45,687 nt of DNA from an uncultured virus (IMG/VR IMGVR_UViG_2049941000_000247) (Duplodnaviria > Heunggongvirae > Uroviricota > Caudoviricetes). Position 1 is the stretch's first letter; every line of letters starts with the position of its first letter. The stretch lies in IMG/VR virus record IMGVR_UViG_2049941000_000247. One strand, given 5' to 3'. Made by a program: the position numbers and the translations under genes. The notes under the pieces were generated by a model. The model ran no database searches. It had not been told where the DNA came from and saw only the letters and a program-made list of their open reading frames with translations. Below are positions 24,040 through 45,687 of the stretch, piece by piece.

Positions 24040-25047
24040 CTTTGTTATTTGACTAAAATACTTATTTTCAGATTATTTGGATTGCCTCTTCGGCACTGAT
24101 CCCGAGTTTGTAAATTCTTGCGTACAGCGTGTGATATTTGATACCAGTAAGCTTCGCCCAGTCCGATAACGTATGCGATTCGCCATGAGCGTCAATGATT
24201 ACAGTGTTCGTACGGTTGTTGGCCTGTACACGTGCATCCTCCCATCTGCAATTGTACGGAGAATACTCACCATCAACATCGATCCTATCAATGGATAATG
24301 AATCATCGTATCCGTTCGCCAGAGCCCAATCACGGAACGCAACATAGTCATTTAGCCATTCGTCGCACACAGATATACCACGGCCCCCATAACGCTGATA
24401 ACCTGGTATGTTCTTGTTATAACATCGTCCCTTCATATTGCACCAGATACGATAAAGTCTCGTATGCCGATCCCCATGCTTAACAGTGCGATCTAATATG
24501 CTTTCCATATTCAAACATCCGCAGCTTTTCGAGTTTCCCTTTTTAAGATTGGACGACATGACAATAACCTCGTTACCGCAATCACATCTACATTTCCATT
24601 GCGATTTTCTTTTTCCGGACGGCAGCACGTGGAATCCTGCGAATTCGACAACGGTCAGTCTTCCGTATTTATTACCAATCAAATTCTCCAATTTGGGCAA
24701 GCACTTCACATCCTTTTATTCTGTTTCTGAAAATAAGTAAACCGGTCGCTACACCGTGTCGGCGCATTAGCGCCCTATCGCTTTCGCGACAGAATAGACT
24801 ATATCTTCGTCCCATAAGGACGCCCACCACTTCCACCGCGCTTGCGATGTACTCCCGTAAAGGGATAGTCGTTGGACGTTCCCCTGTTCGGGGCTTCGCT
24901 GCTGATTGCCCAATCCACATGATTCTCTAACTGTCACGCTCCCGCTTATTTCATCGGCACGTTGTAGTTCATGCGGCTCTAAGGGTGTTCCAGCAATTCA
25001 ATGGGTTATTGTTCGAGCGCGTTACCGCGCAAGCGGCCTAAGCATTA
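24040..25047 (-). ncRNA. Group I intron in the portal gene
   Basis: P1 GGCU|UAA-UGC-UUAGGCC with U.G at the splice site. Core motifs AATTGCTGGAA, GGCAATCAGCAG, CAACGACTA, AAGATATAGTCT. Terminal G 24040. Removal restores ...NNDKA-SANALL... in frame. Confidence 0.93.
24068..24709 (-). CDS. Intron-encoded HNH-type homing endonuclease (213 aa)
   Basis: GNKYGRLTV, WKCRCDCG, RLYRIWCNMKGRC, YGGRGI, SIDRIDVDGEYSPYNCRW. Lies 3' of the intron core. Confidence 0.88.
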   Translation of the reverse strand: MKCLPKLENLIGNKYGRLTVVEFAGFHVLPSGKRKSQWKCRCDCGNEVIVMSSNLKKGNSKSCGCLNMESILDRTVKHGDRHTRLYRIWCNMKGRCYNKNIPGYQRYGGRGISVCDEWLNDYVAFRDWALANGYDDSLSIDRIDVDGEYSPYNCRWEDARVQANNRTNTVIIDAHGESHTLSDWAKLTGIKYHTLYARIYKLGISAEEAIQII

Positions 25048-26138
25048 AGCCTTATCATTATTGAACAGCAGAGACGACACACCGGCTGCCGTAAACAGAC
25101 TCTGTTCCGCATCTGCGATCGTATTCGTATCGCCCACGTTCGACCTCTCGAAGCTGATCTTGTTGAGATCCATCGGAGTCATCACGCCGCCGACTTCCTC
25201 CGGAAGCACGGCGTCGAGATTATTAAAGAAGTCCGTAGCCTTTTTCAGATCGATGCCCCACGCGCCGTCTTCCGTCATCGGGAGCTTCATCCATACGAGC
25301 GCATAGTTTTCAAGCGCCGTCCTCGCCAGCTTCATCAACCGATAATCGTCGATATCGAAAATCTCTCTCAGTATCCCGGCGAACGGCGGCACGGAATATG
25401 CAAGCACGTCAGAATTGCATTTGATAGCAAACGAGGTTGGTGAGTCAAGCTCTATCCACCTTCGCGCATATTTGTCTCGCTTGTAAATCTCATACTTTCG
25501 CGCAAACTCCTCCGGATAGTTCGGAAGACGCTCCGGATGCCTGTCGAAAAATGAAAAATCGAAGGACACGTTCGGCACATTTCCTTCGATGCTGGATATG
25601 GCGCAGTAATCGCTGGGGAGCTGCTGGATCGTAATGTTGTCAGGAGTTACCCACATGCTGCCGTAAAAGCAGTCCTCCCTCAAACACACCGTAAGTATTT
25701 TCGGGAACTGAGTCTTGATGCTCATGGCGGACAGCACATTGAGTACCTTCCTGTAGTTGTTGTTCACGATCCTCACGTTCGCCTTTTTCGGATCGATCCG
25801 ATACGGCTCCACGATGTAGGACAAATCAGACAGCCCTACAAAATACTGGATCAATCGTCTGAAGTGCGGACTGGCATTATAGATATATCGAACCGCACGC
25901 CGCAGCATCTTCTCATACCGCTCAGGATTGGCCAGATACTTGATGATATCCTCTTTCTTGAATTTCAGAAATCCCGGAGCGTAGTATCCGTACCTCCCGT
26001 ATTTATTCAGATCACGCGTGATCAAATGATTCAACAGAGCAAAGTTCTGCGATATCNNNNNNNNNNGATCATGCCGACAGGAAGATTATCAGATACGCCT
26101 GTATCAATACCATCCTGAATTTTTACTTCTTCCGCCAA
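25048..26138 (-). CDS. Portal protein, exon 1
   Basis: Probable TTG start at 26138 (MAEEVKIQ...), follows the terminase. ORF stops at the TAA that begins the intron. Confidence 0.85.
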
Positions 26139-37549: not shown

Positions 37550-38239
37550 TTACATGGCAGCATATTCGGATTCGCCGATGCTGCTGTTGATAAGGTAGTT
37601 ATACTTCACGCTTCCGAGATTCAGCATCTTATACGCGTCCTCTATCTCCTCCTGGGTTATCCCGATATAATCCAGCGTCTGAGCGGGGGAGGAGTGTCCG
37701 AGCATCTTCTGGAGCAGGAGAAGCTTCCTGCTGTCGTTATGGCTCATCAGCATCTGGTGGTAGCAGAACGTCTTCCGAAGCGTATGCGTCGACATCTTGA
37801 TATTAAGATCAAGCTCTTTCCCCCATCCGGATACTATTTTGTGCATCGTCCTGAGACAGAGCGGCTTGTTTCCGGTAAAATCTCGATTGCTTGATATACT
37901 CATGAACATATAGTCGCTCAGGCTCACACCGGGAGTGTTCTCCAAAAACAGCGTGACTGCCTCGATCACAGCGGTATTGATCGTGATGTAACGGTTCTTC
38001 TTCCTCTTTCGCGTATTGCGCGTCTTCTTCTCAAAGACGGGGAAGCTGTCCTTGAACGTCAGGTTGTCATTAATGAGGTTTGAAAACCGAAGCATCCGCA
38101 GATCGCTGGCACGAAGTCCAAAGTTGATACCGACTATGAAGAGCATATTGTCCCTCCACCGCTTATTGTCGATCAGGTACTTTGAGATCCGCATGATGTC
38201 TTCCATCTTCTTGATCGGTTCCGCCGCGTGCTCAGGCGC
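37550..38239 (-). CDS. Tyrosine recombinase/integrase family protein (5' end in gap)
   Basis: Catalytic residues GLRASDL (R), EKKT (K), THTLRKT (HxxR), LGHS (H), TLDYI (Y). Confidence 0.92.
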   Translation of the reverse strand, partial: APEHAAEPIKKMEDIMRISKYLIDNKRWRDNMLFIVGINFGLRASDLRMLRFSNLINDNLTFKDSFPVFEKKTRNTRKRKKNRYITINTAVIEAVTLFLENTPGVSLSDYMFMSISSNRDFTGNKPLCLRTMHKIVSGWGKELDLNIKMSTHTLRKTFCYHQMLMSHNDSRKLLLLQKMLGHSSPAQTLDYIGITQEEIEDAYKMLNLGSVKYNYLINSSIGESEYAAM

Positions 38240-39155
38240 NNNNNNNNNNNNNNNNNNNNNNNNNNNNNNNNNNNNNNNNNNNNNNNNNNNNNNNNNNNNN
38301 NNNNNNNNNNNNNNNNNNNNNNNNNNNNNNNNNNNNNNNNNNNNNNNNNNNNNNNNNNNNNNNNNNNNNNNNNNNNNNNNNNNNNNNNNNNNNNNNNNNN
38401 NNNNNNNNNNNNNNNNNNNNNNNNNNNNNNNNNNNNNNNNNNNNNNNNNNNNNNNNNNNNNNNNNNNNNNNNNNNNNNNNNNNNNNNNNNNNNNNNNNNN
38501 NNNNNNNNNNNNNNNNNNNNNNNNNNNNNNNNNNNNNNNNNNNNNNNNNNNNNNNNNNNNNNNNNNNNNNNNNNNNNNNNNNNNNNNNNNNNNNNNNNNN
38601 NNNNNNNNNNNNNNNNNNNNNNNNNNNNNNNNNNNNNNNNNNNNNNNNNNNNNNNNNNNNNNNNNNNNNNNNNNNNNNNNNNNNNNNNNNNNNNNNNNNN
38701 NNNNNNNNNNNNNNNNNNNNNNNNNNNNNNNNNNNNNNNNNNNNNNNNNNNNNNNNNNNNNNNNNNNNNNNNNNNNNNNNNNNNNNNNNNNNNNNNNNNN
38801 NNNNNNNNNNNNNNNNNNNNNNNNNNNNNNNNNNNNNGTCAATAGTCTTATAAAAAATAAAACAATCTTTTTTGGCACATTTTGAAATCGTTGTTACAAT
38901 GCATCGTTTCTGGCGGGGCTATGGAAGATTCATCGAAGTGAATACAGCTATGCCAGAAGATGTGCTTGATAAAAGATGCAATTGCTATCAGGGGTCTGAA
39001 GGGCTGGGTTGGATGGCTGAAAATGTGGTAAAAACGGGGGATGGGAGATGAAACGACTTACGGCGTTCCTGGCTTTTACCTGGTGGTAAATACCATTACC
39101 ACGGGGCCGGAAGAGTGAAAAGCGGCCACGGAGTGAGCCACGTTCACCACGGGCA

Positions 39156-39209
39156 CCGGCCACCACGGCGGCCGCCCCGGCCACCACGGCGGCCGCCCCG
39201 GCCACCACG
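39156..39209. repeat. 21-bp tandem repeat CCGGCCACCACGGCGGCCGCC, ~2.5 copies
   Basis: Exact copies at 39156-39176 and 39177-39197, partial copy at 39198-39209. Confidence 0.9.
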
Positions 39210-40818
39210 TCCCCGGCCACCGGCATGGATCCATAACGGAACGTAATATTAAGTATTACAAAATGTGATACACGCAGCACTTGACTTTCCCGTCCCATGG
39301 TGGTACACTTGCACCGTGCTTTGATGGAACGGCCACCGGCCACCACCGGCCACGGCTCCGGCTCCGGCCACCGCCCCGGCCGCCGTCATGCGGCACACCG
39401 TACTTTGAAAACGGAATACACCACCGGCAAGGCCACCGTCTTTTTGGTGAAACTGAGTAGCCACGGCCGCCCCNNNNNNNNNNNNNNNNNNNNNNNNNNN
39501 NNNNNNNNNNNNNNNNNNNNNNNNNNNNNNNNNNNNNNNNNNNNNNNNNNNNNNNNNNNNNNNNNNNNNNNNNNNNNNNNNNNNNNNNNNNNNNNNNNNN
39601 NNNNNNNNNNNNNNNNNNNNNNNNNNNNNNNNNNNNNNNNNNNNNNNNNNNNNNNNNNNNNNNNNNNNNNNNNNNNNNNNNNNNNNNNNNNNNNNNNNNN
39701 NNNNNNNNNNNNNNNNNNNNNNNNNNNNNNNNNNNNNNNNNNNNNNNNNNNNNNNNNNNNNNNNNNNNNNNNNNNNNNNNNNNNNNNNNNNNNNNNNNNN
39801 NNNNNNNNNNNNNNNNNNNNNNNNNNNNNNNNNNNNNNNNNNNNNNNNNNNNNNNNNNNNNNNNNNNNNNNNNNNNNNNNNNNNNNNNNNNNNNNNNNNN
39901 NNNNNNNNNNNNNNNNNNNNNNNNNNNNNNNNNNNNNNNNNNNNNNNNNNNNNNNNNNNNNNNNNNNNNNNNNNNNNNNNNNNNNNNNNNNNNNNNNNNN
40001 NNNNGCCGGATTGACGGACGGCGAAAAGGCCACGTTCAAAGTATGCAAAACGCACGTCCGTGCGTGGATTGCGACCGGCGCGTTTGCCCGGCTCCGGATC
40101 AACTATGCCACCGCAGAAAAGTCCATAGACGGAAAGGCGTGGAGCTCAATCCAAAAGCTTGCTGAGCTTGATATGTCCGACATTCTGAANNNNNNNNNNN
40201 NNNNNNNNNNNNNNNNNNNNNNNNNNNNNNNNNNNNNNNNNNNNNNNNNNNNNNNNNNNNNNNNNNNNNNNNNNNNNNNNNNNNNNNNNNNNNNNNNNNN
40301 NNNNNNNNNNNNNNNNNNNNNNNNNNNNNNNNNNNNNNNNNNNNNNNNNNNNNNNNNNNNNNNNNNNNNNNNNNNNNNNNNNNNNNNNNNNNNNNNNNNN
40401 NNNNNNNNNNNNNNNNNNNNNNNNNNNNNNNNNNNNNNNNNNNNNNNNNNNNNNNNNNNNNNNNNNNNNNNNNNNNNNNNNNNNNNNNNNNNNNNNNNNN
40501 NNNNNNNNNNNNNNNNNNNNNNNNNNNNNNNNNNNNNNNNNNNNNNNNNNNNNNNNNNNNNNNNNNNNNNNNNNNNNNNNNNNNNNNNNNNNNNNNNNNN
40601 NNNNNNNNNNNNNNNNNNNNNNNNNNNNNNNNNNNNNNNNNNNNNNNNNNNNNNNNNNNNNNNNNNNNNNNNNNNNNNNNNNNNNNNNNNNNNNNNNNNN
40701 NNNNNNNNNNNNNNNNNNNNNNNNNNNNNNNNNNNNNNNNNNNNNNNNNNNNNNNNNNNNNNNNNNNNNNNNNNNNNNNNNNNNNNNNNNNNNNNNNNNN
40801 NNNGACTGAGGTACATAC

Positions 40819-41019
40819 ATGACCAGAGTGATAGCAAAAGGTATCGGTATGTCAAATGACATTCTTGATAGTATAGTTGCTGACTTCTATGAGTGTATCG
40901 GTACGGAGCCCGTATGCGTTTACAGGATGGGCACATTTTACTTCATCGCGGAAACAGAAGACGGCAACGTGTACACGATAAACTGGAAAAAATCCTGGCG
41001 GCCTGTACGCATGAAATAA
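40819..41019 (+). CDS. Hypothetical early protein (66 aa)
   Basis: RBS GAGGT, ATG, followed by a terminator. Confidence 0.7.
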   Translation: MTRVIAKGIGMSNDILDSIVADFYECIGTEPVCVYRMGTFYFIAETEDGNVYTINWKKSWRPVRMK

Positions 41020-41034
41020 AAATCACTTCAAGCA

Positions 41035-41068
41035 AAGCGCCTGCCTTGTTCGGTGGGCGCTATTTTTA
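41035..41068 (+). terminator. Rho-independent terminator
   Basis: AGCGCCTGCC-TTGTTC-GGTGGGCGCT followed by ATTTTT. Confidence 0.7.
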
Positions 41069-41093
41069 TGCCCAAAAACGAAAGGAGAACAAT

Positions 41094-41255
41094 ATGGAAC
41101 ATGTTCACGAAATGATCGCCGAGATCATGGATGCTATCACCGATCTCCAGGCAGAGCTTTTCCCGCTCATCGACGAGGAAGAGCTTGACGGCGAGATTCT
41201 CGACTATCTCGATGATGCGTATGATTCGCTCTGCGACATCGCTGAGTCCATCTGA
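41094..41255 (+). CDS. Very acidic small protein (53 aa)
   Basis: RBS AAAGGAG. 18 Asp/Glu and no Lys/Arg. Confidence 0.75.
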   Translation: MEHVHEMIAEIMDAITDLQAELFPLIDEEELDGEILDYLDDAYDSLCDIAESI

Positions 41256-42022
41256 CAATTTATTATCAGGAATGNNNNNNNNNNNNNNNNNNNNNNNNNN
41301 NNNNNNNNNNNNNNNNNNNNNNNNNNNNNNNNNNNNNNNNNNNNNNNNNNNNNNNNNNNNNNNNNNNNNNNNNNNNNNNNNNNNNNNNNNNNNNNNNNNN
41401 NNNNNNNNNNNNNNNNNNNNNNNNNNNNNNNNNNNNNNNNNNNNNNNNNNNNNNNNNNNNNNNNNNNNNNNNNNNNNNNNNNNNNNNNNNNNNNNNNNNN
41501 NNNNNNNNNNNNNNNNNNNNNNNNNNNNNNNNNNNNNNNNNNNNNNNNNNNNNNNNNNNNNNNNNNNNNNNNNNNNNNNNNNNNNNNNNNNNNNNNNNNN
41601 NNNNNNNNNNNNNNNNNNNNNNNNNNNNNNNNNNNNNNNNNNNNNNNNNNNNNNNNNNNNNNNNNNNNNNNNNNNNNNNNNNNNNNNNNNNNNNNNNNNN
41701 NNNNNNNNNNNNNNNNNNNNNNNNNNNNNNNNNNNNNNNNNNNNNNNNNNNNNNNNNNNNNNNNNNNNNNNNNNNNNNNNNNNNNNNNNNNNNNNNNNNN
41801 NNNNNNNNNNNNNNNNNNNNNNNNNNNNNNNNNNNNNNNNNNNNNNNNNNNNNNNNNNNNNNNNNNNNNNNNNNNNNNNNNNNNNNNNNNNNNNNNNNNN
41901 NNNNNNNNNNNNNNNNNNNNNNNNNNNNNNNNNNNNNNNNNNNNNNNNNNNNNNNNNNNNNNNNNNNNNNNNNNNNNNNNNNNNNNNNNNNNNNNNNNNN
42001 NNNNNNNNNNNNNNNNNNNNNN

Positions 42023-42287
42023 TTTTTCCGCAAGGTCTGCGAAAAGGTCAGCGATCATCTGGACTTCATCCGGTATCTCTGGCCTGCAAAGTGGGCTTCC
42101 ACGCGTTTCAAGTTCCTGAATTTCCTGAGTGCCAATCATCTCATGACAGGCGTGAACGCTGTAAACGGCGCGGTTTGGCGACTCATGTCACATAGCAATA
42201 TCTATGAGAGTTCGGTGGCCGTAGGCGACACGCTCACGCCAGAGCAGATGGATCGGGTTTTGCATCTCATCTGCAAAGATATCGACT
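42023..42287 (+). CDS. 'DHLxxIRYLWP' family paralog 1 (partial, gaps at both ends)
   Basis: FFRKVCEKVSDHLDFIRYLWPAKWASTRFKFLNFLSA...EQMDRVLHLICKDID aligns with the 44418 and 45103 ORFs. Confidence 0.75.
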
Positions 42288-42316
42288 NNNNNNNNNNGTT
42301 TCTAAGGAGGGGTTCT

Positions 42317-42529
42317 ATGTCAACAATAAACTGCAAGCCACGGGTTTTCGACGTTCATTCGACCGTCGTGGAATCCGGGGAATCTTTCGCGGTTTCCCCC
42401 TACATCGAGAGGGAAGCAGTGGTTTTTGACCTTGGCGGGGTTTCCTATGCCGAGGTTGACCTGCCTGAGTACGGGGTTTCCGCCCTGTTTTACGGCGGGG
42501 AATTCGCGGATCAGTTCCGCGAGGTATGA
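42317..42529 (+). CDS. Hypothetical protein (70 aa)
   Basis: RBS AAGGAGG, ATG 42317. Confidence 0.7.
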   Translation: MSTINCKPRVFDVHSTVVESGESFAVSPYIEREAVVFDLGGVSYAEVDLPEYGVSALFYGGEFADQFREV

Positions 42530-42795
42530 CCATGACGTTTCATGGCTTTCAATCTATAGCTGAATACGAAACAGCCTGTCTTTCCGTCGGGTTTCGTACA
42601 TCCCGTGTTTTATACGACGGACCTGAGCAGGCTTTTCTGCTTAGCACATGTAATCCTGGGAAATCTGAACACGGCGTAGATACGTGGCATTTGTTTTCCC
42701 TGGATGAATCCCACGAGATAATCGAGGGCGGCGGTATTTTTAACGGTATAGACGAGAAACGAATCGAGTCTGCTGGGTTTACGAAAAAGGAGTGA
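42526..42795 (+). CDS. Hypothetical protein (~89 aa)
   Basis: ATGA-coupled, GAGGT upstream. Confidence 0.65.
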   Translation: MTMTFHGFQSIAEYETACLSVGFRTSRVLYDGPEQAFLLSTCNPGKSEHGVDTWHLFSLDESHEIIEGGGIFNGIDEKRIESAGFTKKE

Positions 42796-43161
42796 TCGCA
42801 TGCGTGAGCGTATCATAATCACCGTGGCAAGAACATCGCGCCCGGCAATGCCGGGTTTTACCCGCGCCACGGTGTGGTAATTGACCGGGAAATCGATGAC
42901 GAAATCGTCGTTGTCGTGGAAGACGACGCGGGTTTTCTGTGGGCTTTCTGCGCCGAGGACGTGTTTGTCGGNNNNNNNNNNAATCGCGACCGAGCCGGTC
43001 GGGTATGATAACTGCGACACGGTCACGGTAAAGACCGACGACCGTGGTCTGGTTTCCTTCGTCGGCTACGGCTACGAAGGTGGTGAACGGGTTATCCTGT
43101 TCATGTACAGGAACGGCACATACGACCGTTCCGACGACACGGTGTCAGGTGTATGGGTGCG

Positions 43162-43302
43162 ATGACGAGTCCGCGCTATCCCTGCAGATCCTGCGTTTAC
43201 TTCAGGGTATGCGGGAATTCTAACCGCAGGGAATTCTGCGCCGGGCGTAAGACGAAGCGGCAGCAGAAACGTGAAAAGAAGGAGGAGCGCAAATGTACAT
43301 GA
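43162..43302 (+). CDS. Small Cys-rich basic protein (46 aa, MTSPRYPCRSCVYFRVCG...C)
   Basis: ATGA overlap with the upstream ORF. CxxC-x5-C-x8-C pattern. Confidence 0.55.
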   Translation: MTSPRYPCRSCVYFRVCGNSNRREFCAGRKTKRQQKREKKEERKCT

Positions 43303-43455
43303 GCATGACCATGGGTAATCTGGTTGATACCAGGCGCGAGGTTTTTCTTCAGATGATCGAAAGCCTGGTCAGATTTCACACGCCTGATTTCCGCTGGCGT
43401 GTATACAACGCCTGATTTCCGCTCAAATATGATATGATGTGAAGGAGGCTACCGT

Positions 43456-43650
43456 GTGAAATACTGTGTGACCATCGTCAGGACTGGCTGCATTTTCGTC
43501 GAGGCTGATAGCGAAGCAAAGGCGATAGATATTGCCGACCATCAACTTACGGACACGATTTCCTGGTCTGATGACTGGAGCCCAACTGATGCAGAACCGG
43601 ATGATTCTATCCCAGACAACATGTGTATCAGAGAACGGGCTTTTGAATAA
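43456..43650 (+). CDS. Small acidic protein, possibly DpnD/PcfM-like (64 aa)
   Basis: RBS AAGGAGG. YxVTI...VEADSEAKAI pattern. Family call is tentative. Confidence 0.65.
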   Translation: MKYCVTIVRTGCIFVEADSEAKAIDIADHQLTDTISWSDDWSPTDAEPDDSIPDNMCIRERAFE

Positions 43651-43693
43651 GGGATGACCACAACCTGATTTCCCCGTATATCCTCATTTTCCT

Positions 43694-43809
43694 ACGGTAG
43701 TTACCGTGGGATTTTTGAGGTCAACGCCTTCGGCAGGGTAACTATACTGCCTGACATATCATCATAAAATTATAACGGCAATTACCGTTGGTTTTTCGGT
43801 ACTTGCCGT
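43694..43809. promoter_or_regulatory. Three related 14-bp palindromes (putative operators)
   Basis: ACGGTAGTTACCGT (43694), ACGGCAATTACCGT (43775), TCGGTACTTGCCGT (43796). Confidence 0.6.
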
Positions 43810-43814
43810 TTTTC

Positions 43815-44400
43815 AAAACCGGACGTGGCGCGGGAATTACGCAGCGTACTTACCCATGTGATCCCGTGGCGTAAATAGTTTGCAGGTGACGCCCTAACGT
43901 CCACGTAAACCGCAGGTCAGGACGCGGAAACGAAGATGATCGCAAAACCTCCCACAGGCCACAGGCCGAACGGGGCTCGATAGGATTTTTCAGATACATC
44001 GGATACGCCTTCCGCTGCAATGGCCGGGAAGTTATGACGGTCTTTCCGGACAGATATGAGGGGAAAAGAATATGGGCGGTGATTCTTTTGTTAGATGTTT
44101 TCTTGCGCCGCCGCAAGCGAGGTTCGAAGGACTGGGTGCACAGCACCACCGGCATTTTGCCACCAGCGGCAGTCCGGGTGCGGTACAATTCCGCAGGGCG
44201 GGTTTTGACTTCCCACCCGCCTAACGCTCAGACCGCACGGGTTTTATGCGCATGAAGCTCTTGCGGCGTGCGGGCGCATACGATAATGCGCAAGTCAGGG
44301 AAATGCAGACCTGGCGGACGGGATATTGGAAGTGCATCCTTACCGGTGGGAGGGTTAACGATGCCGGGCGCAGTTATGCGCAAGGGTAAAACCGGGACCG
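43815..44400 (+). ncRNA. Candidate large structured non-coding RNA (boundaries and strand approximate)
   Basis: No RBS-led ORF in ~770 bp. At least nine local stems plus a long-range helix CCTCCCAC (43948-43955) / GTGGGAGG (44346-44353). Confidence 0.55.
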
Positions 44401-44417
44401 TCTAAAAGAAAGGGGCG

Positions 44418-44729
44418 ATGCGAATGATCAAGAAATTGGCTTCATACATCGACGACCACCTCGACTACATCCGGTATCTGTGGCCGGATAAGAACGTCTC
44501 CGCAAGATTCAAGTTCCTGAACTGGGTTTCTGCGGACTGGCTGCGCATACGCATCAACGACGTTCGGTCAGCCGTTTATCGTGTGCATATGTATTCTGAT
44601 ATGTACAAGCGCAGCATCGAACCGGACGGTGTTCCGCTCAACGAAGAGGAGCTCCGCAGGATTTTGGACAATGTCTGCCGACATCTTGAGCGTGTCGACA
44701 TGTGTGCGGAAGAACTTTTCAGGATATAA
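44418..44729 (+). CDS. 'DHLxxIRYLWP' family paralog 2 (103 aa)
   Basis: IDDHLDYIRYLWPDKNVSARFKFLN. RBS AAAGGGG. Confidence 0.8.
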   Translation: MRMIKKLASYIDDHLDYIRYLWPDKNVSARFKFLNWVSADWLRIRINDVRSAVYRVHMYSDMYKRSIEPDGVPLNEEELRRILDNVCRHLERVDMCAEELFRI

Positions 44730-44741
44730 GGAGGAAACAGA

Positions 44742-44897
44742 ATGAATACGCTCATGGATATCATCTACGCCGTCGGTCTTGCCGGCGGCTTTGCTTTCGT
44801 CCTGTTCGTATGCGACGGGGTTTTCGATCTCTGCTATGCGAAGATTCCCCGGTTTCACAACGCGGTGGATCGGTTCTTCGATTCGCTGGAGGACTGA
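44742..44897 (+). CDS. Small membrane protein (51 aa)
   Basis: RBS AAGGAGG. MNTLMDIIYAVGLAGGFAFVLFVCDGVF..., one hydrophobic segment. Confidence 0.7.
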   Translation: MNTLMDIIYAVGLAGGFAFVLFVCDGVFDLCYAKIPRFHNAVDRFFDSLED

Positions 44898-44900
44898 GCC

Positions 44901-45089
44901 ATGTCTGGTAAAACTACATACGCCTACGAGCGTGACGATAACCTGGGTTTTTACAAAGTCACGTTCATCAACGAACGGGGAGTCAGGCTGACGCGCAGCT
45001 TTGATTCCCCGTATTTCACTCGCCAGTTTGTAAACAAACTGAGACGTAGCAAGAAGTGCAAGCTGGTTTCCTATCCAAGTTACTTTTAA
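44901..45089 (+). CDS. Hypothetical basic protein (62 aa)
   Basis: RBS GGAGG, clean ORF. Confidence 0.7.
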   Translation: MSGKTTYAYERDDNLGFYKVTFINERGVRLTRSFDSPYFTRQFVNKLRRSKKCKLVSYPSYF

Positions 45090-45102
45090 GGAGGCGGTTG
45101 CC

Positions 45103-45426
45103 ATGACCGGGTTTTTCCGCAAAGTCTGTAACAAGATCGACGACCACCTGAATTGTGTTAGGTATCTCTGGCCTGACAAGAATGTCTCAGTACGTTTCAA
45201 GTTCCTGAATCTCCTGAGCGCAGACCGGCTACGCGTCAAAGTGAATAATGTTTCCGCTGAGGTACGAAGAGCGGTTTATCTCATCAGAATGTATGCCGGT
45301 GTCTACGAGCGTTCCGTGGCTTCTAAAGACCCGCTCAATCCGGAGCAAATGGATAAGGTTTTGCAGCTCATCTGCAAAGACCTCGACTATCTGGAAAGAA
45401 AGACGGACGACCTGTACAAAATCTAA
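45103..45426 (+). CDS. 'DHLxxIRYLWP' family paralog 3 (107 aa)
   Basis: IDDHLNCVRYLWPDKNVSVRFKFLN. RBS AAGGAGG. Confidence 0.8.
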   Translation: MTGFFRKVCNKIDDHLNCVRYLWPDKNVSVRFKFLNLLSADRLRVKVNNVSAEVRRAVYLIRMYAGVYERSVASKDPLNPEQMDKVLQLICKDLDYLERKTDDLYKI

Positions 45427-45687
45427 GGAGGCNNNNNNNNNNTGGGATTTTTTCAAAGATCAGGTAAAGACGCTGGTTCATTCCTACATCCCCATCGCAC
45501 AGGCCGACGGCGGTGTGACGATCCTGATGGGTGTCGAATACTCCGGTATGCCGAACATCATCGTCATGGTCGAAGGCGATGTGGTCATGGAGGAGCTGGC
45601 AACAGGCAAGGAGGATCTTGCGGACACGCTTGAGTATATCTACAGCGTCTACGCGAGTGACCGTGGGTATGCCACGGGCTTGTCCGA

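What the first reader, a model, noticed from the sequence alone, without database searches (positions are those of the whole stretch)
43815..44400. Candidate ~600-nt highly structured non-coding RNA in the phage early region
Seen: ~770 bp with no RBS-led ORF in an otherwise densely packed region. Stems: GGACGT/ACGTCC (43821/43897), CGGGA/TCCCG (43831/43862), CCGGGAAG/CTTTCCGG (44024/44042), AAAAGAAT/ATTCTTTT (44064/44082), CTTGCG/CGCAAG (44102/44112), GGACTG/CAGTCC (44129/44170) enclosing two sub-hairpins, TGCGG/CCGCA (44179/44191), GGCGGGT/ACCCGCC (44197/44215), TATGCGC/GCGCATA (44245/44274), GCGCA/TGCGC (44368/44377). A long-range CCTCCCAC/GTGGGAGG helix encloses ~390 nt, with AGGAT/ATCCT nested inside it. 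No group I core motifs. Known: Bacillota phages carry large ornate RNAs (ROOL, GOLLD) of this size class. Inference: a divergent member of such a class or a new class.
Basis: partly seen in the sequence, partly recalled or inferred. Interest (0 to 1): 0.8.

Follow-up and report, generated by a model that had tools for sequence, protein, structure and literature searches.

The report
Phage RNA built around RAGATH-36
The second half of this gene-free gap in a cattle-gut phage encodes a real, about 290-base folded RNA of a little-known phage family whose database model covers only its middle; the first half shows no sign of being part of it.

Summary
Only the 3' part is a supported RNA. Window 44115-44403 (+) matches Rfam RAGATH-36 over the full model, but below its threshold (50.7 vs 70 bits, E 5.8e-9).

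Relatives from phage, metagenome and Clostridia genome contigs show that the Rfam motif is only the core of a larger RNA, roughly 230-430 nt. The extra parts are:
- a 5' AAGCGAGGUUCGA motif;
- a variable hairpin, P1;
- a roughly 110-145-nt 3' domain.

A model of that 3' domain, built without the window, hits 44287-44408 as the window's only match (58 bits, E 5.5e-10). Its helices covary strongly: 21 of 23 pairs change on both sides, and 0 of 500 shuffles reach the observed score.

In 12 of 45 relatives a tRNA gene starts within 3 nt of the RNA's 3' end. Cattle-gut RNA-library contigs cover 44217-44398.

The 5' half (43815-44114) folds no better than shuffles (z +0.60), has no family counterpart and carries the indels seen in close relatives.

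It is not ROOL or GOLLD. Its function is unknown; a processed, trans-acting, tRNA-linked RNA is my best guess.

The parts
44115..44127 (+). 5' motif AAGCGAGGUUCGA (called A1 here). It contains a tRNA-T-loop-like GGUUCGA. AAGCG could pair with CGCUC at 44225-44229 to close a four-way junction; this helix P0 is hypothetical because both sides are nearly invariant.
   Evidence: The motif lies upstream of the Rfam model start in relatives. It is present in 27 of 28 relatives that were found without using it in the search and that carry the 3' motif (my count on the table). Information content rises from about 0.2 to about 2 bits exactly at position -2 (54 representatives); positions 3-10 are fixed by my selection.
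44129..44175 (+). P1, a variable hairpin (GGACTG ... CAGTCC enclosing two small hairpins). It is unusually long in the window, where the segment is 51 nt; relatives range from 14 to 99 nt.
   Evidence: In 50 of 50 distinct relatives the segment between A1 and P2 folds into a hairpin that closes within 1 nt of its start and 2-3 nt of its end, despite unrelated sequences. Median z is -2.7. The window's own z is only -1.1.
44176..44294 (+). RAGATH-36 core. It comprises P2 (TGCGG 44179-83, 7-nt loop UACAAUU, CCGCA 44191-95), P3 (44196-44221), UAACGCUCAG (44222-31), P4 (CCGCA 44233-37 with UGCGG 44262-66), and P5 (GCGCA 44274-78, loop UACGAUAA, UGCGC 44287-91).
   Evidence: cmscan gives RF03104 at 50.7 bits (gathering 70), E 5.8e-9, model positions 1-128 of 128. 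Across relatives the outer 3 bp of P2 pair in 75 of 75, with 10 variants. P3 closes in 59 of 60. For P4, cognate pairs beat permuted ones in 2000 of 2000 trials.
44294..44315 (+). Hairpin with the conserved loop GAAAUGC (GTCAGG / loop 44300-09 / CCTGGC). The loop's AUGC (44303-06) may pair with GCAU (44334-37) as a pseudoknot.
   Evidence: In model R1 this helix has 7 pairs, 6 of them with changes on both sides, and 94.5% of cells paired. The pseudoknot has 95.1% of cells paired, one A-U to G-C switch in 3 rows and 9 mismatches at that pair. It is tentative.
44317..44321 (+). 5' strand of the long-range helix X (GACGG), which pairs with 44398-44402.
   Evidence: Cognate duplex energy is -8.95 against -5.55 kcal/mol for permuted partners, with 0 of 5000 permutations as low.
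44330..44341 (+). Conserved single-stranded motif AAGUGCAUCCUU (called A5 here).
   Evidence: Invariant or nearly invariant columns in alignments A1 and A2. It anchors the nhmmer hit.
44342..44353 (+). 5' strand of helix Y (CCGGU 44343-47) followed by the conserved GGAG motif (GGGAGG 44348-53).
   Evidence: All 4 core Y pairs show changes on both sides, with 96.0% of cells paired.
44368..44381 (+). Variable hairpin of the 3' domain (GCGCA, loop GUUA, UGCGC).
   Evidence: It occupies the place of helix 5 of model R1. In the window three of that helix's five model pairs are marked non-standard or absent.
44382..44397 (+). Conserved motif AAGGGUAAAA (called A6 here) followed by the 3' strand of helix Y (ACCGG 44391-95).
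44398..44403 (+). 3' strand of helix X (CCGUC 44398-44402) and the inferred 3' end of the RNA. A ribosome-binding-like AAAGAAAGGGG and the ORF start at 44418 follow.
   Evidence: In relatives a tRNA gene starts -3 to +1 nt from this point in 12 of 45. RNA-library contigs stop at 44395 and 44398, the second running into adapter-like letters, while DNA contigs continue.
43810..44114 (+). Unassigned spacer. I do not count it as part of the RNA.
   Evidence: It folds no better than shuffles and has no Rfam or family match. Two DNA runs from other studies keep 43810-44500 with 14 substitutions and 6 indel events, and diverge completely upstream of 43810. Five of the 6 indel events fall in 43851-43986.
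43690..43797 (+). Two terminator-like hairpins with U tracts (43690-43711 and 43773-43790), downstream of ORF 43456-43650 and upstream of the spacer.
   Evidence: The scan found 11 terminator-like sites in 42000-45687 against 3.4 expected. This is a consensus match only.

Best explanation
Window 44115-44403 (+) is a gene for a structured non-coding RNA of about 289 nt. It is a divergent member of a family of Clostridia phages and prophages whose central third is Rfam's RAGATH-36.

Shown:
- A 5' domain in which a conserved AAGCGAGGUUCGA motif, a variable hairpin (P1), a tRNA-T-arm-like hairpin (P2: 5-bp stem, 7-nt loop UAYRAUU) and a third hairpin (P3) precede UAACGCU, followed by P4 and P5.
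- A 3' domain made of a hairpin with the loop GAAAUGC, a long-range helix X enclosing AAGUGCAUCCUU, and helix Y with GGAG and GGUAAAA. The RNA ends at the 3' strand of X.

Inferred:
- It is transcribed with its neighbours and cut out as a stable RNA. Where a tRNA gene abuts its 3' end, RNase P cleavage of that tRNA's leader would create the end. In the window some other cut, about 15 nt before the next start codon, would do so.
- It acts in trans on tRNA or the translation machinery, perhaps by presenting its two T-loop-like elements. I give this last step about 0.3.

For: Identity:
- RF03104 matches over its full length, E 5.8e-9.
- An nhmmer profile of the 3' domain, built from 23 relatives without the window, hits 44288-44394 at E 8.8e-8.
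- Covariance model R1, built from the same seeds, gives 58 bits and E 5.5e-10, the only hit in 45.7 kb on either strand.

Structure of the 3' domain:
- R1 finds the domain in 67 places in 85 sources.
- On 56 distinct rows, 89.8% of cells pair against 67.7% shuffled. 21 of 23 pairs change on both sides. Covariation is 0.523 against 0.178, with 0 of 500 shuffles as high and slid controls at 0.065-0.104.
- An alignment-free test on 31 distinct combinations supports helices X and Y, with 0 of 5000 permutations reaching the observed mean.
- The top mutual-information column pairs are the proposed pairs.

Structure of the 5' domain:
- P1 closes in 50 of 50.
- P2 pairs in 75 of 75, P3 closes in 59 of 60, and P4 beats permuted partners in 2000 of 2000 trials.

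Strand: many G-U pairs occur in the helices, and both models hit + only.

Borders:
- Conservation starts 2 nt before GCGAGG.
- tRNA genes start -3 to +1 nt from the end of X in 12 of 45 relatives, and 4 more loci that are cut short begin the same tRNA-like letters.

Expression hint: contigs from two cattle-gut metatranscriptome runs of one study cover 44217-44395 and 44247-44398. One carries the family-typical P2, CACGG/CCGUG, where the window has UGCGG/CCGCA; that is two compensatory pairs.

Host range: 12 of 20 genome hits are family members. Eleven lie in Clostridia assemblies and one in a bin labelled Saccharibacteria.
Against: - The Rfam score is below the curated threshold (50.7 vs 70 bits).
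- The window has no tRNA gene and no twister or hammerhead above noise, so the typical neighbourhood is missing.
- Alignment A3 was fitted to the model, so its pair counts lean towards the structure.
- In the window, one Y pair and three pairs of the inner hairpin are marked non-standard.
- P0 and the loop pseudoknot rest on almost invariant letters.
- The RNA-library evidence is contigs only. They cannot show strand, ends or level, DNA carry-over is possible, and both runs come from one study.
- The contig end at 44398 would leave most of the 3' strand of X outside the fragment.
- No promoter-like site was found on the + strand in 42000-45687.
- Nothing tested here bears directly on function.
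Confidence: 0.82

Rival explanations
1. The whole 43815-44400 stretch is one large ornate RNA of about 600 nt. The 5' 300 nt would be a lineage-specific extension of the family RNA.
For: In two DNA runs from other studies the conserved block starts at 43810, so the spacer and the RNA are inherited together. Some relatives do carry 5' extensions: the L012 type repeats the AAUGC / AAAGUGCAUCCUU / helix module between a tRNA and the 5' motif. The hypervariable patch 43875-43883 lies in the loop of a possible hairpin, GGCGU/ACGCC.
Against: 43815-44114 folds no better than shuffles on either strand. Models R1 and Rfam find nothing there. In relatives, reading frames or unrelated sequence run up to within 0-100 nt of the 5' motif, and conservation vanishes 3 nt upstream of it. 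Five of the six indel events between close relatives fall there and none falls inside the RNA.
Confidence: 0.08
2. It is a self-assembling scaffold RNA of the ROOL/GOLLD kind: copies join through loop-loop contacts into a multimer, and the multimer is the functional form.
For: The setting is the same: phages and prophages, often beside tRNA genes, with rumen and gut origin (PMC5737381 passages; bioRxiv 10.1101/2024.12.08.627333 passages). In the long-form relatives the 8-nt loop of the inner 3'-domain hairpin has a self-complementary core that switches between CAUG and CGCG (columns 109-112 of A2).
Against: There is no sequence or structure match to ROOL or GOLLD, and the RNA is half their size or less. 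The self-complementary loop is not general, and the window's loop is GUUA. No test of assembly is possible with these tools.
Confidence: 0.12
3. It is a cis-acting leader of the downstream gene (44418-44729): a riboswitch-like or mRNA-stabilising 5' structure.
For: The RNA ends about 15 nt before the start codon, directly before a ribosome-binding-like stretch. In 29 of 45 relatives an A-rich spacer rather than a tRNA gene follows the RNA, and in most of the 29 a ribosome-binding-like sequence and start codon follow that.
Against: The genes that follow are unrelated to one another: lipoprotein-like proteins, a small YEFR...FSAD protein, and others. In 12-16 of 45 relatives what follows is a tRNA gene, which a translational leader cannot regulate. 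No terminator or anti-terminator alternative is evident. RNA-library contigs stop at the RNA's end instead of running into the ORF (a weak hint).
Confidence: 0.1
4. It is a self-cleaving or otherwise catalytic RNA, as the search strategy that found the RAGATH motifs intended.
For: Sub-threshold twister-P1 matches lie within about 1.3 kb in 4 of 18 related loci. The conserved core is complex, with invariant single-stranded nucleotides.
Against: There is no match to any known ribozyme class (Hammerhead_II 15.1 bits, E 7, which is noise). The ends of the RNA coincide with tRNA processing sites rather than with an internal conserved cleavage site. Nothing here tests catalysis.
Confidence: 0.05

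Closest known systems
RAGATH-36 RNA (Rfam RF03104)
   Same: The window aligns to all 128 model positions, with the conserved CGGUAYRAUUCCG hairpin, the following hairpin, AACGCU, the long stem and the terminal hairpin with a UACGA-type loop. Relatives that score 73-130 bits share the window's flanking motifs.
   Different: The window scores 50.7 bits, below the gathering score of 70. The family as modelled stops at 128 positions. The RNA described here adds a 13-nt 5' motif, hairpin P1 and a 3' domain of about 110-145 nt, so the Rfam entry is a fragment of the real unit. I could not read the original description: the supplement of PMC5737381 was unreadable, and 'RAGATH-36' occurs in no searchable full text. 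The authors may therefore have noted an extension.
ROOL and GOLLD large phage RNAs
   Same: They are encoded in phages and prophages, often next to tRNA genes. ROOL was first found in cow rumen. Both have several pseudoknots and no known function (PMC5737381 passages; 10.1101/2024.12.08.627333 passages).
   Different: No covariance-model match at any threshold used. This RNA is about 230-430 nt, against about 580 and over 800 nt. The motifs are unrelated. Multimer formation was not tested.
tRNA T-arm and double T-loop modules that dock the tRNA elbow (RNase P, T-box stem I, ribosomal L1 stalk)
   Same: P2 has a 5-bp stem and a 7-nt loop UAYRAUU, which is T-arm geometry. The 5' motif holds GGUUCGA, the commonest T-loop wording. 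Both sit at one junction. That these read as T-loops is my recollection of the motif. That double T-loop modules dock tRNA elbows comes from PMC3664808 (title, abstract start and one passage).
   Different: ARAGORN finds no tRNA or tmRNA in the window. The helix order is not that of a tRNA, and there is no acceptor stem or CCA end. No RNase P or T-box model matches. Whether the two elements interlock is untested.

Membership tests
RAGATH-36 (RF03104) | Score at or above Rfam's gathering threshold (70 bits) | tested here: not met
   50.7 bits, E 5.8e-9 in a 1.2-kb scan. It is not listed at the gathering threshold over the whole window.
RAGATH-36 (RF03104) | Full set of model helices and conserved linkers, in order | tested here: met
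   Alignment covers model positions 1-128 of 128, with four pair positions marked non-standard.
RAGATH-36 (RF03104) | Flanking elements shared by high-scoring members: 5' AAGCGAGGUUCGA, hairpin P1, and the 3' domain with helices X and Y | tested here: met
   These features were defined here, not by Rfam.
RAGATH-36 (RF03104) | Phage setting near tRNA genes or twister ribozymes | tested here: inconclusive
   The window is phage-like: a 626-aa protein is 42-43% identical to Enterocloster phages and Clostridium phage c-st. It has no tRNA and no twister. Parts of the window are masked with N.
ROOL / GOLLD | Match to the Rfam covariance models | tested here: not met
   No hit up to E 10 in 43400-44600. 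None at gathering threshold in the window. None up to E 0.001 in 18 related loci.
ROOL / GOLLD | Length of about 580 nt or more, with many multistem junctions | tested here: not met
   The supported RNA is 289 nt. The extra 300 nt are not structured beyond chance.
ROOL / GOLLD | Homo-oligomeric cage | not testable with these tools
   No RNA 3D or assembly tool is available here.
tRNA / tmRNA | Cloverleaf or tRNA-like domain recognised by ARAGORN | tested here: not met
   0 genes in the window.
Group I / group II introns, OLE, raiA, HEARO, known self-cleaving ribozymes | Match to the Rfam models | tested here: not met
   None up to E 10 in 43400-44600 except Hammerhead_II at 15.1 bits, E 7. The window's only gathering-level hit is a group I intron elsewhere, at 24775-25057.

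The most novel reading that the evidence does not exclude
RAGATH-36 as catalogued is only the middle third of a two-domain, pseudoknotted phage RNA of 230-430 nt. This RNA is embedded head-to-tail in tRNA arrays and released by the tRNA-processing machinery. It would use two tRNA-type T-loops at one junction to dock on tRNA elbows or on tRNA-binding factors. That would make it a phage-encoded tRNA-directed riboregulator, decoy or ribozyme, and a third tRNA-island RNA class beside ROOL and GOLLD.
Probability: 0.15. Interest if true: 0.85.

Novelty: new variant of a known kind. Interest (0 to 1): 0.55.

Why it matters
RAGATH-36 is one of many orphan motifs from comparative genomics with no function and, as far as my searches reach, no discussion in searchable full text. 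This work shows that the catalogued 128-nt motif is the core of a much larger RNA, and that changes what should be cloned, probed or imaged.

The larger RNA has sharply defined ends, a covarying 3' domain and a direct junction to tRNA genes. This places a third structured RNA class in the phage tRNA islands where ROOL and GOLLD live. The family is widespread in gut and rumen Clostridia phages.

The extended model also recovers divergent members, such as this window's copy, that the Rfam threshold misses.

Tried and rejected
- **Cultured phages.** blastn of the gap and of a canonical relative against 50,697 phage records gave no match. No isolate is known from that collection at that sensitivity.
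- **Whole genome of the window.** None is held.
- **Close relatives through the flanking 103-aa protein.** One weak locus was found in viral contigs. blastn of 43200-44800 against all loci fetched up to (L001-L180) matched only 44173-44237. The later genome loci L181-L200 were compared by motif search only; none stood out as a near relative of the window. So there is no comparative data for 43651-44114, apart from the near-identical contigs.
- **Pattern scans.** The metagenome pattern scan was noisy. Only 45 of 119 matches carried a second family motif, and the rest were treated as chance. Likewise 8 of 20 genome hits were treated as chance.
- **Pseudoknot UCC (in GCAUCC) with GGA (in GGAG).** 2 of 3 CCC variants have GGGG, but the G and A variants at that position do not fit. 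I dropped it in favour of the tentative loop AUGC / GCAU pairing.
- **CCUU pairing with the GAGG before GGUAAAA.** Only the invariant CC-GG part fits (by eye). Rejected.
- **Neighbouring proteins.** Among 14 neighbouring proteins tested (8 from the window, 6 from relatives), none matched Pfam or PHROGs except an HU-type protein in L079.
- **A linked small protein.** The window's 64-aa ORF aligns only weakly (22% identity) with the small YEFR...FSAD protein common downstream of relatives. I make no claim from it.
- **Promoter.** No promoter-like site on the + strand in 42000-45687.
- **RNA coverage.** RNA-library contigs show no cover on 43600-44216 or 44406-44500.
- **Mis-extracted sequences.** Automatic motif extraction mis-placed anchors in 4 sequences (L018, L129, L031, L125). 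These were left out, so 45 of 49 were used.
Full report
**What is in the sequence**

The window looks like part of a large Bacillota phage. A 626-aa protein is 42-43% identical to proteins of about 100-kb Enterocloster phages and Clostridium phage c-st. The run index places this DNA in cattle-gut metagenomes. Genes up to about 41 kb lie on the minus strand. From 42143 onward, small genes lie on the plus strand.

Between the stop of ORF 43456-43650 and the start of ORF 44418-44729 there are 767 bases with only short, unsupported ORFs. Five of these ORFs (47-112 aa) have no meaningful Pfam or PHROGs match.

**Is it more than chance?**

Taken whole, the gap folds better than shuffles: z -3.08 on +, -2.43 on -, with only 20 shuffles each. 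The signal comes from one half.
- 44115-44403 gives z -2.22, with 4 of 200 shuffles folding as well.
- 43815-44114 gives z +0.60 on +, with 144 of 200 shuffles as good, and +0.46 on -.

**What it matches**

At Rfam's gathering thresholds the window has one hit, a group I intron at 24775-25057. A permissive scan of 43400-44600 gives RAGATH-36 (RF03104) at 44176-44294, + strand. It scores 50.7 bits against a threshold of 70, E 5.8e-9, and covers model positions 1-128. Everything else in that scan is noise. Nothing from ROOL, GOLLD, OLE, raiA, HEARO, group II introns, RNase P or T-box appears. ARAGORN finds no tRNA or tmRNA.

**Relatives**

Motif scans gave the following:
- 18 and 43 loci in viral contigs.
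- 119 matches in metagenome contigs, of which 45 carry a second family motif.
- 20 matches in genomes, of which 12 are family members. Eleven are in Clostridia assemblies (Oscillospiraceae, Lachnospiraceae, Herbinix, Acutalibacteraceae and others) and one is in a bin labelled Saccharibacteria.

In the first 18 loci Rfam finds RAGATH-36 in 16, at 40-130 bits. It sits among tRNA genes and, in 4 loci, near sub-threshold twister-P1 matches. After removing duplicates I kept 76 distinct sequences, including the window. None is a near relative of the window's gap. Among the loci fetched up to (L001-L180), only 44173-44237 aligns by blastn.

**The family RNA is larger than the Rfam motif**

Laying the loci side by side shows conserved sequence on both sides of the model.

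*Upstream.* The motif AAGCGAGGUUCGA comes first, then a hairpin of unrelated sequence and 14-99 nt. This hairpin closes in 50 of 50 distinct cases, with median z -2.7. Conservation begins abruptly 2 nt before GCGAGG. Of 28 members found without using this motif in the search, and that carry the 3' motif, 27 have it (my count). In several relatives, reading frames or unrelated sequence run up to or into the motif. So the RNA starts there.

*Downstream.* The elements follow in this order:
- a hairpin with the loop GAAAUGC;
- the 5' strand of helix X;
- AAGUGCAUCCUU;
- the 5' strand of helix Y;
- GGAG;
- a variable hairpin;
- GGUAAAA;
- the 3' strand of Y;
- the 3' strand of X.

**Tests of the 3' domain**

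- An nhmmer profile from 23 relatives (alignment A2, window left out) finds the window at 44288-44394, E 8.8e-8.
- Covariance model R1, built from the same seeds with my structure, gives one hit in the window: 44287-44408, 58 bits, E 5.5e-10.
- R1 gives 67 hits in 85 sources.
- On the resulting alignment (56 distinct rows, 23 pairs), 89.8% of cells pair against 67.7% in shuffles. 21 pairs change on both sides. The covariation score is 0.523 against 0.178, with 0 of 500 shuffles as high. Sliding the partners by 1-3 columns drops it to 0.065-0.104.

That alignment was fitted to the model, so I also ran a test that needs no alignment. Using segments taken at fixed offsets from the motifs, cognate duplexes are more stable than permuted ones:
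- Y: -7.70 against -4.69 kcal/mol.
- X: -8.95 against -5.55 kcal/mol.
- This used 31 distinct combinations from 45 of 49 sequences, and 0 of 5000 permutations reached the observed mean.

The highest mutual-information column pairs are the proposed base pairs.

**Tests of the core**

- The outer 3 pairs of P2 form in 75 of 75 sequences, with 10 variants.
- P3 closes in 59 of 60.
- P4 beats permuted partners in 2000 of 2000 trials.

**Tentative tertiary contacts**

A tertiary contact between the GAAAUGC loop (AUGC) and GCAU of AAGUGCAUCCUU is possible. 95.1% of cells pair and one A-U to G-C switch occurs in 3 rows, but there are 9 mismatches at that pair. I call it tentative. The closing helix AAGCG/CGCUU is hypothetical, because neither side varies enough to test it.

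**Ends and neighbours**

The 3' strand of X is the last conserved element. In 12 of 45 relatives a tRNA gene (Glu, Gln, Lys, Ile or Ser) begins -3 to +1 nt from it. Four further loci that are cut short begin the same tRNA-like letters. In the other 29, an A-rich spacer follows, and in most of these a ribosome-binding-like site and a start codon come next. The window is of this second kind.

In the L012-type relatives a tRNA gene ends just before a 5' extension that repeats the AAUGC / AAAGUGCAUCCUU / helix module.

An RNA bounded by tRNA genes would be released by tRNA processing. RNase P would make its 3' end. This rests on established knowledge of RNase P and is an inference here.

**Evidence from sequencing runs**

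Two DNA runs from other studies hold 43810-44500 with 14 substitutions and 6 indel events, and they are unrelated upstream of 43810.
- Five of the indel events lie in 43851-43986.
- One lies at 44404.
- None lies inside 44115-44403, which has three substitutions (44271, 44360, 44362).

Two metatranscriptome runs of one study each give one short contig.
- One contig covers 44217-44395, preceded by 34 letters of the family-typical P2/P3. Its P2 reads CACGG/CCGUG where the window has UGCGG/CCGCA, which is two compensatory pairs.
- The other covers 44247-44398 and then runs into 20 letters that I recognise, from memory, as the start of an Illumina adapter. This suggests many fragments ended there.

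These are contigs from RNA libraries. They show presence, not strand, level or true ends, and DNA carry-over cannot be excluded.

**The 5' half**

Two terminator-like hairpins with U tracts follow the upstream ORF, at 43690-43711 and 43773-43790. From 43810 to 44114 I find:
- no family match;
- no folding excess;
- no promoter-like site;
- single-base and two-base indels between close relatives.

This argues against a coding frame, and nothing argues for structure. It is inherited together with the RNA, so it may hold signals I cannot see. A lineage-specific 5' extension is not excluded; I give it 0.08.

**What it most likely does**

Shown: a conserved, covarying, two-domain RNA with defined borders, on the + strand, in Clostridia phages and prophages, often fused to tRNA genes.

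Inferred: it is a stable, processed, trans-acting RNA. Two elements read like tRNA T-loops (the reading is my recollection of the motif). P2 has the 5-bp stem and 7-nt loop of a T-arm, and the 5' motif contains GGUUCGA. Paired T-loop modules dock the tRNA elbow in RNase P, T-box leaders and the L1 stalk (PMC3664808: title, abstract start and one passage). Together with the tRNA-island setting, this makes a tRNA-directed role my preferred guess, at about 0.3. Nothing here tests it.

Rivals are an assembly-forming RNA like ROOL or GOLLD, a cis leader of the next gene, and a ribozyme. I weigh them in their own section.

**Comparison and novelty**

By sequence and structure this is a RAGATH-36 relative that fails the curated score. 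I file it as a divergent member of that family in an extended sense defined here. It is not ROOL or GOLLD, but it shares their setting (PMC5737381 passages; 10.1101/2024.12.08.627333 passages).

'RAGATH-36' occurs in no searchable full text. The main text of the paper that, by my recollection, introduced the RAGATH motifs does not contain the word RAGATH. Its supplement could not be read. I therefore cannot say whether the extension was noted there.

No cultured phage in the INPHARED copy matches by blastn.

**Verdict**

A real RNA gene of about 289 nt lies at 44115-44403. The finding's main value is that it exposes the true extent of an orphan phage RNA family.

Noticed in passing
window 24775-25057 (-): Group I intron, 88.9 bits (gathering 50), E 1.6e-21. 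It lies between minus-strand ORFs 24068-24709 and 25045-26034, so it probably splits a phage gene.
   Followed up: no
window 42023-42132, 44424-44533, 45112-45221: Three paralogous genes of about 105 aa (61-74% DNA identity over 110 nt) flank the RNA. None has a Pfam or PHROGs match.
   Followed up: partly
window 43380-43395, 43408-43423, 43661-43682: ACGCCTGATTTCCGCT occurs twice, 28 nt apart, and a similar CCTGATTTCCCCGTAT follows the upstream ORF. In the related DNA contigs, similar letters (TGATTGATCCCCGTAT) sit directly before the point where they join the window at 43810. This may be a phage promoter, an operator, or a recombination hot spot.
   Followed up: no
window 43810: Sharp mosaic border. 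Contigs from two other studies keep 43810-44500 with 14 substitutions and 6 indel events, and are unrelated upstream. The spacer, the RNA and the next gene therefore move as one module.
   Followed up: partly
L008, L009, L010, L018, L021, L087 and similar loci: inner hairpin of the 3' domain: The 8-nt loop reads GGUCAUGN, GGUCGCGG or AGUCGCGC. Its self-complementary core switches between CAUG and CGCG while the stem covaries (columns 103-116 of A2). This could be a loop-loop dimer contact. The window's loop is GUUA.
   Followed up: partly
L005, L007, L012-L014, L016, L017 (about 115 nt upstream of the 5' motif): A tRNA gene, or in L012/L013 other sequence ending in the same ..GGCACCA letters, is followed at once by a small extra module (hairpin, AAUGC, AAAGUGCAUCCUU, a 5-bp helix around GGAGG...GGUUAA), and then by the normal RNA. 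This amounts to a duplication of the 3'-domain core at the 5' end.
   Followed up: partly
L077, L079, L170, L078, L198, and the upstream copies in L004/L087: These are truncated or internally deleted copies. Some have the 5' domain only, followed by ORFs. Others have the 5' domain joined directly to the last helices before a tRNA. Two MAG contigs carry two copies 1-2 kb apart.
   Followed up: no
L003, L021, L057, L079, L121, L131, L198 (downstream of the RNA or of its tRNA): A small protein with the pattern YEFRxVxGHxEVxLxGxFxFSAD recurs just downstream. It has no Pfam or PHROGs family. In L079 and L131 an HU-type DNA-binding protein follows. The window's 64-aa ORF 43456-43650 aligns only weakly with it.
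   Followed up: partly
L020, L021 and similar loci: An upstream ORF ending ...WFTLKRGSMP reads through the RNA's 5' motif and stops in the loop of P1. Its third-position variation upstream is typical of coding sequence. This is a gene-RNA overlap.
   Followed up: no
window, several stretches (for example about 38000-42000, 42287-42298, 45434-45444): Runs of N mask parts of the window. Any tRNA, twister or related element inside them would be invisible.
   Followed up: no
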